Of a DNA stretch of 64,000 bases, positions 35,401 to 38,400 are shown piece after piece. The DNA lies in assembly GCF_055900595.2 (NCBI RefSeq), contig NZ_CM148325.1. One strand, written 5' to 3'. Made by a program: the position numbers. How positions within the stretch are numbered: the first letter of the stretch is position 1; each line of letters starts with the position of its first letter.

Positions 35401-38400
35401 ATTAGCGATGGCATCCAGATCTTTCTTATAGGTATCGATCGGCAGGATCCCTTTCGCGTAAGTGGTTTCGTTAAACCACGGGCACGCGCCTTGCTCTTTC
35501 GCCAGCTCATTAGACGCTTTCAGCAGGTAATACTGAATGGCTTCGAAGGTTTTATGCGTCAGGTTGTTGGCGCTGCCGTCGGAGTAGCGTTTACCGTGCT
35601 TCGCCAGGTAGTAAGCGAAGTTGATCACACCAATACCCAGCGTACGACGACCCATCGCTCCACGTTTGGCGGCCGGGATCGGGTAATCCTGATAATCCAG
35701 CAGCGCGTCGAGTGCGCGTACTGCCAGAATCGCCAGCTCTTCCAGTTCATCCAGGCTATTAATTGCGCCCAGGTTGAAAGCAGAAAGCGTACACAGCGCG
35801 ATTTCACCGTTCTCGTCGTTGACGTCGTTCAGTGGTTTGGTCGGCAGGGCGATTTCCAGGCATAGGTTAGACTGGCGCACTGGTGCAATAGCCGGATCAA
35901 ACGGGCTGTGGGTGTTGCAGTGGTCTACGTTCTGAATATAGATACGACCGGTAGACGCACGTTCCTGCATCATCAGCGAGAACAGCTCAACGGCTTTCAC
36001 ACGCTGTTTGCGGATGCTGTCGTCTTTCTCATATTTGGTGTACAGGCGTTCAAACTCTTCCTGATCGGCGAAGAATGCGTCGTACAGCCCCGGTACGTCG
36101 GACGGGCTGAACAGGGTGATATCTTCACCTTTCAGCAGACGGGTATACATCAGTTTGTTGATTTGTACCCCGTAGTCCATATGACGCACGCGGTTGCCTT
36201 CCACCCCACGGTTGTTTTTCAACACCAGCAGGCTTTCCACTTCCAGATGCCACATCGGGTAGAACAGTGTTGCCGCACCGCCGCGCACACCGCCCTGAGA
36301 GCAGGATTTCACTGCCGTCTGGAAATGTTTGTAGAACGGAATACAACCGGTGTGGAACGCTTCGCCACCGCGAATCGGGCTACCCAGCGCACGAATACGC
36401 CCGGCGTTGATGCCGATCCCGGCACGCTGGGAAACGTATTTAACAATCGCGCTGGAGGTGGCGTTGATGGAATCCAGGCTGTCGCCGCACTCAATCAGCA
36501 CGCAGGAGCTGAACTGACGAGTCGGGGTACGCACGCCGGACATGATTGGCGTCGGCAGCGAAATTTTAAATGTGGAAACCGCGTCGTAAAAACGCTTCAC
36601 GTATTGCAGGCGCGTTTCACGCGGGTAGTTCGAGAACAGGCACGCAGCAACCAGAATATAAAGGAACTGGGCGCTCTCATAGATTTCGCCGGTCACGCGG
36701 TTCTGTACCAGATATTTGCCTTCCAGCTGCTTAACGGCAGCATAAGAGAAGGTCATATCACGGTCGTGATCGATAAACGTGTCCATCTGCTTGAACTCTT
36801 CTTCCGTGTAGTCTTCCAGCAGATGATTATCGTATTTGCCCATCTCGACCATTTTCACCACGTGGTCGTACAGTGCAGGCGGCTCAAACTGGCCGTAGGC
36901 TTTTTTACGCAGGTGGAAGATCGCCAGGCGCGCGGCGAGATACTGATAATCCGGCGCATCACGGGAGATCAGGTCTGCGGCAGCCTTGATAATGGTTTCG
37001 TGGATGTCAGAGGTCTTGATACCGTCATAAAACTGAATGTGGGAGCGCAGCTCGACCTGGGAAATCGAAACGTTATGCAGTCCTTCTGCCGCCCAATCCA
37101 GAACGCGATGGATTTTGTCGAGATTGATGCGCTCTGTGCTACCGTCGCGCTTTGTCACCAGCAGATTCTGATTCATGTATGTCGTACCTGTTTTTGGAAT
37201 TCTTTCCGCAATAGCTTCATGCAGACTACCTGTAGTGAGGGAAGCTGCTTAGAACACTATATATAGGGGGTATGTTTGGGATTCACTGCAAGATAGTGTG
37301 AAAATGGCCCTCTTGCAAGTGCATAACTTTGTGGATAACTCAGGAAGGAAAAAGTGGCTTCCGCGCACCTTAGGTCAGACAAGGTATCCGGGAAAGTCAA
37401 TGGGAAGAGAAAAATTTGTTAAAAATAACTGTTCGGCGATTTCTTGAACGGCAGAATAGTATGGGTAAATTGATATAGATGGTTTATTAATCTTGTCGCT
37501 AATGATTGTCAAAATTGATCTAAGCACGAATCATCACATAATCTGATGTATCAGTTGTGGTCAATATATAAGCGAATGTAAGCGATTGTTGAGTCGGAAA
37601 TGGTTGTTTTCTATTCGGTTATTGTTAAATACCAAGCCAATTTGTTACTTTTGCATATATTATAAGAATATTATTTATTACTTTAATTCAGTTTACATAT
37701 AACCGATTTACCTTAAGATTATTAATTTGAATTATGACACACTGATATTATTCATCAAATAATAACAAAATAGTCATTGCGCCGGGTTGTACAATTTACA
37801 AAAGAAATATACCCCATAGCGCATAATGCGATTAAATACGCCGTCTTATAGAAAATGATGGTTAGATGAATATGCGGATTATCTTTCTACGCAAGGAGTA
37901 TTTATCTTTACTCCCGTCAATTATTGCATCTCTTTTCTCTGTTAACAGTATCGCGGAGGTTTTGGATTCATGCCAGGGATATGATATCAAAGCGAGTTGT
38001 CAGGCCAGCAGGCAAAGCCTTTCAGGCATTACGCAGGACTGGAGCATCGCCGATGGGCAATGGGTGATTTTTTCGGGTATGGCCAATAATGCCAGCGGTG
38101 GGGCCGTATTTTTGCAGCAAAGTGCTGAATTTACGATATCGCCACAAAATGAAACTGGAATGACTCTGTTTGCCAATAATACTGTCTCAGGAGAATATAA
38201 TAATGGCGGGGCAATATTTGCTAAAGAAAACTCAACGCTGAATCTTACTGATGTTATTTTTTCCGGTAACGTCGCAGGCGGCTATGGTGGCGCAATCTAT
38301 TCTTCTGGTACTAATGATACTGGTGCCGTCGATTTACGTGTCACTAACGCCATGTTTAGCAATAACATCGCTAATGATGGCAAAGGTGGCGCAATTTATA

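What the first reader, a model, noticed from the sequence alone, without database searches (positions are those of the whole stretch)
37177..37865. Long AT-rich intergenic region between nrdA and the yfaL autotransporter gene
About 690 bp of non-coding DNA with a DnaA box near the nrdA side and a very AT-rich stretch (37430-37860) upstream of yfaL. This is typical of H-NS-silenced adhesin promoters and may also hold nrdAB regulatory sites (NrdR, Fis, IciA). Unusually long for E. coli.
Basis: partly seen in the sequence, partly recalled or inferred. Interest (0 to 1): 0.3.

Follow-up and report, generated by a model that had tools for sequence, protein, structure and literature searches.

The report
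Composite nrdA–yfaL intergenic control region
This 695-bp gap is the well-studied control region of the essential ribonucleotide reductase operon joined to an AT-rich stretch that arrived with the yfaL adhesin gene in the Escherichia lineage and that binds the silencing protein H-NS in E. coli K-12; it is real but ordinary and already documented.

Summary
nrdA (minus strand, ATG 37176) and yfaL (plus strand, annotated ATG 37872) are separated by 695 bp, the longest gene gap in the window. GC is 0.42 on the nrdA side and 0.30 on the yfaL side, against a window mean of 0.51.

The gap has two parts that meet at about 37450.
- **37177-37450** is the ancestral nrdAB control region. It holds NrdR boxes 1 and 2, the -10 and -35 hexamers, two DnaA boxes, HusR boxes and an upstream block conserved across genera. 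It is nearly invariant in Escherichia.
- **37451-37871** is specific to Escherichia. In 86 other Enterobacterales loci ubiG sits upstream of nrdA, 342-586 bp away in 85 of them, and yfaL is absent.

The second part cannot be aligned between Escherichia species, yet it keeps its length and a GC of 0.26-0.30. Its K-12 orthologue is a published "promoter island" reported as H-NS-bound in all the ChIP studies compiled.

No structured RNA, leader peptide or repeat was found. The annotated ypaB ORF has a stop codon in three Escherichia species.

Novelty is nil and interest is low. A side observation deserves a note: Escherichia has moved the DnaA and NrdR boxes of nrdAB relative to other enterobacteria.

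The parts
37177..37284 (-). nrdA 5' untranslated leader. The transcription start is inferred at about 37283-37286 from the -10 hexamer.
   Evidence: Sequence is identical to K-12 except for 3 substitutions. The fold is no more stable than shuffles, z = +0.17.
37223..37238 (-). NrdR box 2: TCACTACAGGTAGTCT here, GTACTACAGGTAGTCT in K-12.
   Evidence: Mapped from the oligonucleotides of PMC12176259. It lies 15 bp downstream of box 1. The two substitutions add one match to the consensus.
37254..37269 (-). NrdR box 1 (CCCCTATATATAGTGT)
   Evidence: It has 2 mismatches to the 16-bp NrdR consensus. It is the best conserved element across about 80 Enterobacterales loci.
37286..37301 (-). Degenerate NrdR 'box 0' overlapping the -10 hexamer TATCTT (37290-37295)
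   Evidence: Boxes 0+1 bind NrdR with Kd above 6 uM in K-12. The box has 6 mismatches to the consensus.
37313..37318 (-). nrdAB promoter -35 hexamer TTGCAA, with a 17-bp spacer to the -10
   Evidence: Read from the sequence. Invariant in Escherichia. The assignment follows the K-12 literature and is inferred here.
37318..37338 (-). Two DnaA boxes: TTATCCACA (37330-37338, perfect) and TTATGCACT (37318-37326)
   Evidence: The review PMC8203912 describes DnaA boxes in the nrdAB promoter.
37341..37391 (.). HusR (YnfL) boxes: CACTTTTTCCTTCCTG at 37341-37356 and CAGACAAGGTATCCGG at 37376-37391
   Evidence: Box sequences come from PMC12844172 Table 1. The second fits CnGnnnAnnTnnnCnG.
37390..37446 (-). 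Upstream block of the nrdAB region conserved across genera (..GAAGAAATC..TTGAC..). It is a candidate for the published upstream activating or AT-rich element.
   Evidence: Alignment with Salmonella, Citrobacter, Klebsiella, Enterobacter, Kluyvera and Leclercia. Function is inferred from titles in reference lists.
37304..37447 (+). ypaB ORF (47 aa) overlapping the nrdAB promoter; probably not a conserved gene
   Evidence: Intact in the window and in K-12. TGA at codon 18 in E. albertii, E. whittamii and Escherichia sp. E1V33, although the DNA is nearly invariant. CRISPRi effects on ypaB are attributed to the nrdA promoter.
37451..37871 (+). Escherichia-specific AT-rich segment upstream of yfaL (GC 0.30). 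It is the orthologue of a K-12 'promoter island' and H-NS target.
   Evidence: Homology to other genera and between Escherichia species ends at about 37450. ubiG abuts nrdA in 86 loci that lack yfaL. For the promoter island and H-NS. Six of 22 promoter-like sites in 20 kb fall in 37506-37763.
37515..37542 (+). Promoter-like site TTGATC-16-CATAAT, the yfaL promoter proposed for K-12 from SELEX
   Evidence: This is a prediction only. It would give a leader of about 320 nt with no excess structure, z = -0.28.
37856..37917 (.). Position that corresponds to two ChIP-exo peaks at yfaL in K-12. They come from the table the paper cites for GadX peaks.
   Evidence: K-12 v2 coordinates 2342146-2342207 from the supplement of PMC4918353, mapped by the indel-free alignment.
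37872..41636 (+). yfaL (ehaC) autotransporter adhesin gene, intact here
   Evidence: ORF; annotation of the orthologues.
34891..37176 (-). nrdA, class Ia ribonucleotide reductase alpha subunit

Best explanation
The gap is a divergent control region made of two pieces with different histories.

**Piece 1 (37177 to about 37450)** is the ancestral cis-regulatory region of the essential nrdAB operon. It has a sigma-70 promoter (TTGCAA-17-TATCTT) with two DnaA boxes just upstream of the -35 hexamer. A tandem NrdR operator (boxes 1 and 2) lies in the transcribed leader and represses when NrdR carries dATP plus ATP or ADP. HusR boxes and a conserved upstream block lie further upstream.

**Piece 2 (about 37451 to 37871)** is AT-rich DNA that entered together with the yfaL autotransporter gene. 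The entry point lay between ubiG and the nrdAB control region, in the lineage leading to E. coli, E. albertii and E. whittamii. It works by composition rather than by a specific sequence. At about 30% GC it is a dense field of promoter-like sites that binds RNA polymerase and the silencer H-NS. This keeps yfaL cryptic in laboratory conditions.

**Shown here:** the anatomy, the boundary, the restriction to Escherichia, and the conservation pattern.

**Taken from K-12 literature:** binding of H-NS, NrdR, DnaA, HusR and GadX.

**Inferred:** that H-NS silences yfaL on this allele.
For: - The gap matches K-12 without indels. The nrdA-proximal part is 97-100% identical and the distal part 88-92%.
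- All published boxes map exactly.
- In 86 of 101 Enterobacterales loci ubiG lies upstream of nrdA on the same strand. The distance is 342-586 bp in 85 of them and 2371 bp in one. yfaL occurs only in 4 Escherichia loci, always 694-703 bp from the nrdA ATG.
- Similarity to other genera stops at about 37450-37480.
- Among Escherichia species the sequence is almost invariant up to about 37450, then abruptly unalignable in at least three allele families. Even so, GC stays at 0.26-0.30 and length at about 700 bp.
- The region is present in 5416 of 5426 complete E. coli genomes.
- The K-12 orthologue is a promoter island marked H-NS-bound in all the ChIP studies compiled. H-NS is flagged again by SELEX.
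- Promoter-like sites are about 17-fold denser here than in the surrounding 20 kb.
- yfaL phenotypes were obtained with an inserted constitutive promoter, and no TSS position is listed for it.
Against: - H-NS occupancy and yfaL silencing were not measured for this strain. I found no paper showing yfaL derepression in an hns mutant.
- Against shuffles that keep the composition, promoter-like sites are not enriched: 6 found against 3.8 +/- 1.9. The 'island' is therefore a consequence of AT-richness.
- yfaL as a whole is 51% GC, so only its upstream region and 5' end look foreign.
- Co-acquisition of the AT-rich segment with yfaL is inferred from the shared boundary, not from an identified donor. 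Plasmid collections gave none.
Confidence: 0.85

Rival explanations
1. The AT-rich half has no function. It is unconstrained spacer that drifted to low GC under the AT-biased mutation pressure typical of bacteria.
For: It diverges at least as fast as neighbouring coding DNA: 88-92% identity to K-12 against about 97% for nrdA. It cannot be aligned between Escherichia species. No conserved motif, repeat or structure was found.
Against: Length (694-703 bp) and GC (0.26-0.30) are held across allele families that share almost no sequence. No E. coli genome has collapsed it; 5413 of 5426 keep at least 80% of it. In K-12 it is occupied by H-NS and shows ChIP-exo peaks at the yfaL start.
Confidence: 0.1
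2. The gap hides an unannotated product. Candidates are a small RNA, a structured leader or riboswitch for yfaL or nrdA, a leader peptide, or the small protein YpaB.
For: ypaB is annotated in K-12 and most E. coli genomes, and its RNA was reported as HusR-dependent. Phage P1 keeps an ORF of similar length, upfO, over the homologous DNA. The SELEX-predicted promoter would give a leader of about 320 nt.
Against: Rfam gave no match up to E = 1. Fold energies equal those of shuffles, z = +0.17 and -0.28. No terminator-like site was found. The 38-aa ORF at 37586-37702 is broken in K-12. ypaB carries a stop at codon 18 in three Escherichia species while the DNA stays invariant, so the constraint is on the nrdAB promoter.
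Confidence: 0.05
3. The AT-rich half mainly serves nrdAB. It would act as a far-upstream extension of that promoter, through Fis or H-NS sites or a bent-DNA element, and yfaL would be a bystander.
For: H-NS is reported to repress nrdAB, and an upstream AT-rich sequence is required for its cell-cycle control (titles and statements). A perfect match to the Fis consensus lies at 37559-37573, about 280 bp upstream of the start.
Against: Enterobacteria without yfaL run nrdAB with a spacer of only about 350 bp that ends at the equivalent of about 37450-37480. The Fis-like match and everything beyond 37450 are not conserved even within Escherichia. The conserved AT-rich block at 37390-37446 is a better candidate for the published element.
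Confidence: 0.15

Closest known systems
E. coli K-12 nrdAB promoter and regulatory region (b2234 upstream; DnaA, NrdR, Fis, IciA/ArgP, H-NS, HusR)
   Same: Orthologous, with the same length. The -35 and -10 hexamers, the DnaA boxes and NrdR box 1 are identical to K-12. NrdR box 2 and one HusR box are at the same positions with base changes.
   Different: Five substitutions in 37177-37450. Two lie in NrdR box 2 (GT to TC at its outer end) and one in a HusR box. No functional test was done here.
Promoter island 2342143_534 yfaL/ypaB of Panyukov and Ozoline 2013 (PMC3661553)
   Same: It maps to window 37387-37920. The window shows the same AT-richness and the same clustering of promoter-like sites, next to a gene classed as horizontally acquired.
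   Different: The window allele is only about 90% identical to K-12 and is rare: 9 of 5416 genomes are at least 99% identical. RNA polymerase binding, H-NS binding and abortive transcription were not measured for it.
H-NS xenogeneic silencing of cryptic E. coli adhesin genes
   Same: An AT-rich upstream region beside a lineage-specific adhesin gene that is silent in the laboratory and was studied with an inserted promoter.
   Different: No direct evidence was found that hns deletion derepresses yfaL. The silenced DNA directly abuts the control region of an essential housekeeping operon.
Phage P1 upfO-hot upstream region
   Same: A 56-bp stretch about 94% identical to the DnaA-box segment (window 37300-37348), with weaker similarity over about 150 bp. 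The P1 record already notes this.
   Different: In P1 it lies upstream of hot, in the ypaB orientation, with a late promoter between them. It has nothing to do with the AT-rich half.

Membership tests
E. coli-type nrdAB control region | Lies immediately upstream of nrdA with the K-12 promoter hexamers TTGCAA-17-TATCTT | tested here: met
   Identical sequence at 37290-37318
E. coli-type nrdAB control region | Two DnaA boxes just upstream of the -35 hexamer | tested here: met
   37318-37326 and 37330-37338
E. coli-type nrdAB control region | NrdR boxes 1 and 2 separated by 15 bp in the leader | tested here: met
   37223-37269; a unique match in the 64 kb
E. coli-type nrdAB control region | Binding of DnaA, NrdR, Fis, IciA and H-NS, and their effect on transcription | not testable with these tools
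   Known for K-12 from the literature only. The Fis and IciA footprint papers are not held.
Promoter island (Panyukov and Ozoline) | At least 300 bp with an exceptional density of potential transcription starts | tested here: met
   Orthologous to the listed island. Six of 22 consensus-type sites in 20 kb fall within 260 bp. A simpler scanner was used than the authors' own.
Promoter island (Panyukov and Ozoline) | Association with a horizontally acquired gene | tested here: met
   yfaL and this segment are absent from 86 ubiG-nrdA loci of other genera
Promoter island (Panyukov and Ozoline) | RNA polymerase and H-NS occupancy with little productive transcription | not testable with these tools
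   Reported for K-12; not measured for this allele
H-NS-silenced xenogeneic DNA | GC content well below the genome average | tested here: met
   0.30 against 0.51; lowest 0.5% of 442-bp windows
H-NS-silenced xenogeneic DNA | Derepression of the adjacent gene when hns is removed | not tested
   No such experiment on yfaL was found in the held literature
Structured RNA, sRNA or riboswitch | Match to a known RNA family, or a fold more stable than chance | tested here: not met
   Rfam gave no match up to E = 1; z = +0.17 and -0.28
Small protein gene ypaB | Open reading frame kept across related species | tested here: not met
   Stop at codon 18 in E. albertii, E. whittamii and Escherichia sp. E1V33

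The most novel reading that the evidence does not exclude
The arrival of the yfaL cassette, with its AT-rich upstream DNA, beside nrdAB in the Escherichia ancestor may be linked to a re-wiring of the nrdAB promoter that is seen only in that lineage.

- The DnaA boxes moved from the transcribed leader to upstream of the -35 hexamer. In 76 of 78 other Enterobacterales loci they abut NrdR box 1 on its downstream side.
- The NrdR operator shifted one box downstream.
- The promoter hexamers appear to have moved about 12 bp.

On this reading the reported H-NS repression of nrdAB in E. coli is a by-product of the neighbouring silenced island. The re-wiring pattern itself is solid. The causal link and the H-NS spill-over are speculation.
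Probability: 0.15. Interest if true: 0.5.

Novelty: already known. Interest (0 to 1): 0.15.

Why it matters
The finding itself adds little. The nrdAB control region is one of the most dissected promoters in E. coli, and the AT-rich part is already catalogued as an H-NS-bound promoter island.

What this analysis adds is a clean boundary at about 37450 between ancestral regulatory DNA and DNA that came with yfaL. That boundary explains why the gap is twice the length found in other enterobacteria.

It is also a small example of an essential, cell-cycle-controlled operon living directly beside silenced foreign DNA. That could matter when interpreting H-NS effects on nrdAB, and when carrying E. 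coli nrdAB regulation over to Salmonella or Klebsiella, whose operator layout differs.

Tried and rejected
- **Rfam scan** of 36800-38300 at E up to 1: nothing.
- **RNA folding** of the nrdA leader and of a putative 340-nt yfaL leader: no excess stability.
- **Terminator scan:** none in the gap.
- **Repeats:** only short chance-level direct and inverted repeats.
- **Small ORFs:** 37586-37702 is broken in K-12. The minus-strand ORFs lie inside invariant regulatory DNA and give no independent signal.
- **Motif scans:** the published H-NS 10-mer, IHF, CRP and Lrp consensus scans gave only weak matches, and I do not use them.
- **Mobile origin of the AT-rich half:** the plasmid collection returned only 6 E. 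coli records at 90% identity, several of chromosome size.
- **Plasmid hits to 37300-37348:** these looked new at first. They are the P1 upfO-hot region, whose similarity to the E. coli DnaA-box DNA is already written in the P1 record.
- **Papers not held:** the Fis/DnaA footprint, AT-rich element, H-NS/nrd and P1 genome papers. Fis, IciA and H-NS sites on nrdAB therefore could not be placed.
- **yfaL transcription start:** no supplementary table was held.
- **First local alignment across genera:** it used too harsh a scoring and found only NrdR box 1. A MAFFT alignment replaced it.
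Full report
**1. What is at the coordinates**

The window carries nrdA on the minus strand (34891..37176, 761 aa) and a 1256-aa ORF on the plus strand (37866..41636). Megablast places the stretch in 5425 of 5426 complete E. coli genomes, between nrdA and 'AIDA-I family autotransporter adhesin YfaL/EhaC'.

The nearest genome (NZ_CP098223.1, 99.9% identical) and K-12 both start yfaL at the ATG that corresponds to window 37872. The gap is therefore 37177..37871, 695 bp, exactly as in K-12, with no indel between the two.

GC values:
- 0.513 for the whole window and 0.347 for the gap;
- 0.423 for 37177-37429 and 0.303 for 37430-37871;
- 100-bp windows as low as 0.19-0.22 at 37600-37750.

Only 0.5% of 442-bp windows in the 64 kb are as AT-rich. 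A perfect DnaA box lies at 37330-37338; the window holds 2, against 0.33 expected. Judged by the annotation of the nearest genome, 695 bp is the longest gene gap in the window. The next longest are 465, 307 and 278 bp.

**2. The nrdA-proximal part**

I mapped the published K-12 elements onto the window through the indel-free alignment.

| Element | Window coordinates | Source |
|---|---|---|
| NrdR box 2 | 37223-37238 | |
| NrdR box 1 | 37254-37269 | |
| NrdR 'box 0' (non-binding) | 37286-37301 | |
| -10 hexamer TATCTT | 37290-37295 | |
| -35 hexamer TTGCAA | 37313-37318 | |
| DnaA box TTATGCACT | 37318-37326 | |
| DnaA box TTATCCACA | 37330-37338 | |
| HusR (YnfL) boxes | 37341-37356, 37376-37391 | |

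- Boxes 1 and 2, with their 15-bp linker, are the pair shown to bind NrdR at about 100 nM in K-12 (PMC12176259).
- The window differs from K-12 at five positions in 37177-37450. Two are in the outer end of box 2 and one is in a HusR box.
- The leader RNA is no more structured than shuffled sequence.

**3. The boundary at about 37450**

I fetched 101 Enterobacterales loci with a degenerate pattern in the nrdA 5' coding region.

- In 86 of them ubiG lies upstream of nrdA on the same strand. The distance is 342-586 bp in 85 (most often about 355 bp, longer where REP-like elements are inserted) and 2371 bp in one.
- yfaL is found only in four Escherichia loci: E. coli, E. albertii, E. whittamii and Escherichia sp. 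E1V33. It always diverges from nrdA, 694-703 bp from its ATG.
- Eleven loci gave no hit to either gene. Eight of them held less than 450 bp of upstream sequence.

A multiple alignment shows that similarity between E. coli and other genera covers NrdR box 1 and an upstream block, window about 37390-37446 (GAAGAAATC...TTGAC). It then runs into the ubiG terminator of those genera.

Within Escherichia the sequence is almost invariant from the nrdA ATG to about 37450. It then becomes abruptly unalignable and falls into at least three allele families. All of these keep GC at 0.26-0.30 and the same overall length.

Against K-12, the window is 97-100% identical up to 37400 and 88-92% identical beyond. 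The same divergent block continues into yfaL. On the other side of yfaL, the ubiG-yfaL spacer consists of two REP elements.

The gap is thus about 275 bp of ancestral nrdAB control DNA plus about 420 bp that belongs to the yfaL cassette.

**4. The AT-rich part**

- **Published status in K-12.** Its orthologue is promoter island 2342143_534 'yfaL/ypaB', which maps to window 37387-37920. It is one of 78 such regions. It is marked as associated with horizontally acquired genes and as H-NS-bound 'according to all studies' compiled there (PMC3661553).
- **SELEX.** A genomic SELEX study of sigma-70 holoenzyme lists TTGATC-16-CATAAT as the yfaL promoter and flags H-NS in this spacer (PMC3946193). That site is conserved at 37515-37542.
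- **Promoter-like density.** Six of the 22 promoter-like sites found in 28000-47999 fall within 37506-37763, about 17 times the surrounding density. Against composition-preserving shuffles there is no excess, so the clustering follows from AT-richness.
- **ChIP-exo.** Two peaks listed at yfaL in K-12 map to window 37856-37917, over the start codon. The same table gives no TSS position for yfaL.
- **Expression.** The yfaL biofilm phenotype was obtained by inserting a constitutive promoter in front of the gene.
- **Negative results.** I found no Rfam match, no excess RNA structure in a putative leader, no terminator-like site, no meaningful repeats and no mobile-element relative.

**5. ypaB**

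K-12 and most E. coli annotations place a 47-aa ORF on the plus strand at the equivalent of 37304-37447, across the nrdAB promoter. The ORF is intact in the window. It has a TGA at codon 18 in E. albertii, E. whittamii and E1V33, while the DNA around it is nearly invariant. The constraint is therefore on the regulatory DNA, not on a protein. A CRISPRi screen likewise attributed the 'essentiality' of ypaB to the nrdA promoter inside it.

**6. Mechanism**

*Shown here:* the anatomy and the evolutionary split.

*Taken from K-12 literature:*
- DnaA activates or represses from the boxes at the -35 hexamer, depending on its nucleotide state.
- HusR binds upstream.
- H-NS covers the AT-rich segment.

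*Inferred:* H-NS bound to this DNA keeps yfaL silent on this allele. Selection acts on composition and length rather than on sequence.

*Rivals.* The main rivals are neutral spacer, a hidden RNA or peptide, and a far-upstream nrdAB element. They are less well supported, for the reasons given in their entries.

**7. Comparison and novelty**

The window's allele of the AT-rich half is uncommon: 9 of 5416 genomes are at least 99% identical and 54 are at 95-99%. It has the same layout as the common alleles.

**8. Side observation**

In 76 of 78 non-Escherichia loci with a recognisable NrdR box 1:
- a perfect DnaA box starts exactly 16 bp after the start of box 1, usually with an inverted partner 30 bp further on;
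- the partner NrdR box lies upstream at -32, with 3-5 mismatches to the consensus.

In the yfaL-bearing Escherichia:
- the perfect DnaA box is 69 bp upstream of box 1;
- the upstream NrdR box is degraded to 6 mismatches;
- a new box appears at +31.

This agrees with the experimental reassignment of the E. coli operator, and with both boxes mattering in Salmonella. I did not find the comparison discussed in the papers I could read. Paywalled work may cover it.

The Escherichia-type DnaA-box segment also occurs in phage P1 upstream of hot. The P1 record already notes this.

Noticed in passing
window 37223-37338; loci L006-L106: The nrdAB operator layout differs between Escherichia and other Enterobacterales. 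In 76 of 78 other loci the DnaA boxes lie just downstream of NrdR box 1 (+16 and usually +46), and the partner NrdR box is upstream (-32). In yfaL-bearing Escherichia the DnaA boxes are upstream of the -35 hexamer, and the partner NrdR box is downstream (+31). I did not find this discussed in the held literature.
   Followed up: partly
window 37300-37348 (weaker to about 37440); L003 3001-3048; L107 884-939: The DnaA-box segment of the nrdAB promoter is about 92-94% identical to DNA upstream of the hot (DNA polymerase III theta homologue) gene of phage P1 and P1-like plasmids (235 places in E. coli assemblies). P1 UpfO (46 aa) shares its N-terminus with YpaB. The P1 GenBank record already notes the 56-bp match.
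   Followed up: yes
window 37304-37447 (+): The annotated small gene ypaB is interrupted by a stop at codon 18 in E. albertii, E. whittamii and Escherichia sp. E1V33 although the DNA is nearly invariant. It is unannotated in the genome closest to the window.
   Followed up: yes
window 41637-41775: The spacer between the convergent genes yfaL and ubiG consists of two REP elements. In other genera a simple hairpin, probably the ubiG terminator, occupies the corresponding place.
   Followed up: partly
window 34745-34890: The nrdA-nrdB spacer is 146 bp, against 233 bp in K-12. K-12 carries one extra 87-bp REP/BIME unit, which also holds its annotated 11-aa yoaM.
   Followed up: yes
window 30600-31925: Two further AT-rich stretches (GC 0.27-0.29) lie between inaA and glpQ. 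There the nearest genome annotates only pseudogene fragments (a LysR fragment and a frameshifted hypothetical protein), and K-12 has the yfaH pseudogene.
   Followed up: no
window 37866-37874: A T-to-G change relative to K-12 creates a second in-frame ATG two codons upstream of the annotated yfaL start.
   Followed up: partly
L001 10139-11316 (NZ_CP098223.1): The genome closest to the window has an IS3-family element inside yfaL, whereas yfaL is intact in the window. The window is therefore not that assembly.
   Followed up: no
window 37517-37520: The only GATC (Dam) site of the gap lies inside the -35-like hexamer TTGATC of the SELEX-predicted yfaL promoter. A single site gives no sign of a phase-variation switch.
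   Followed up: no
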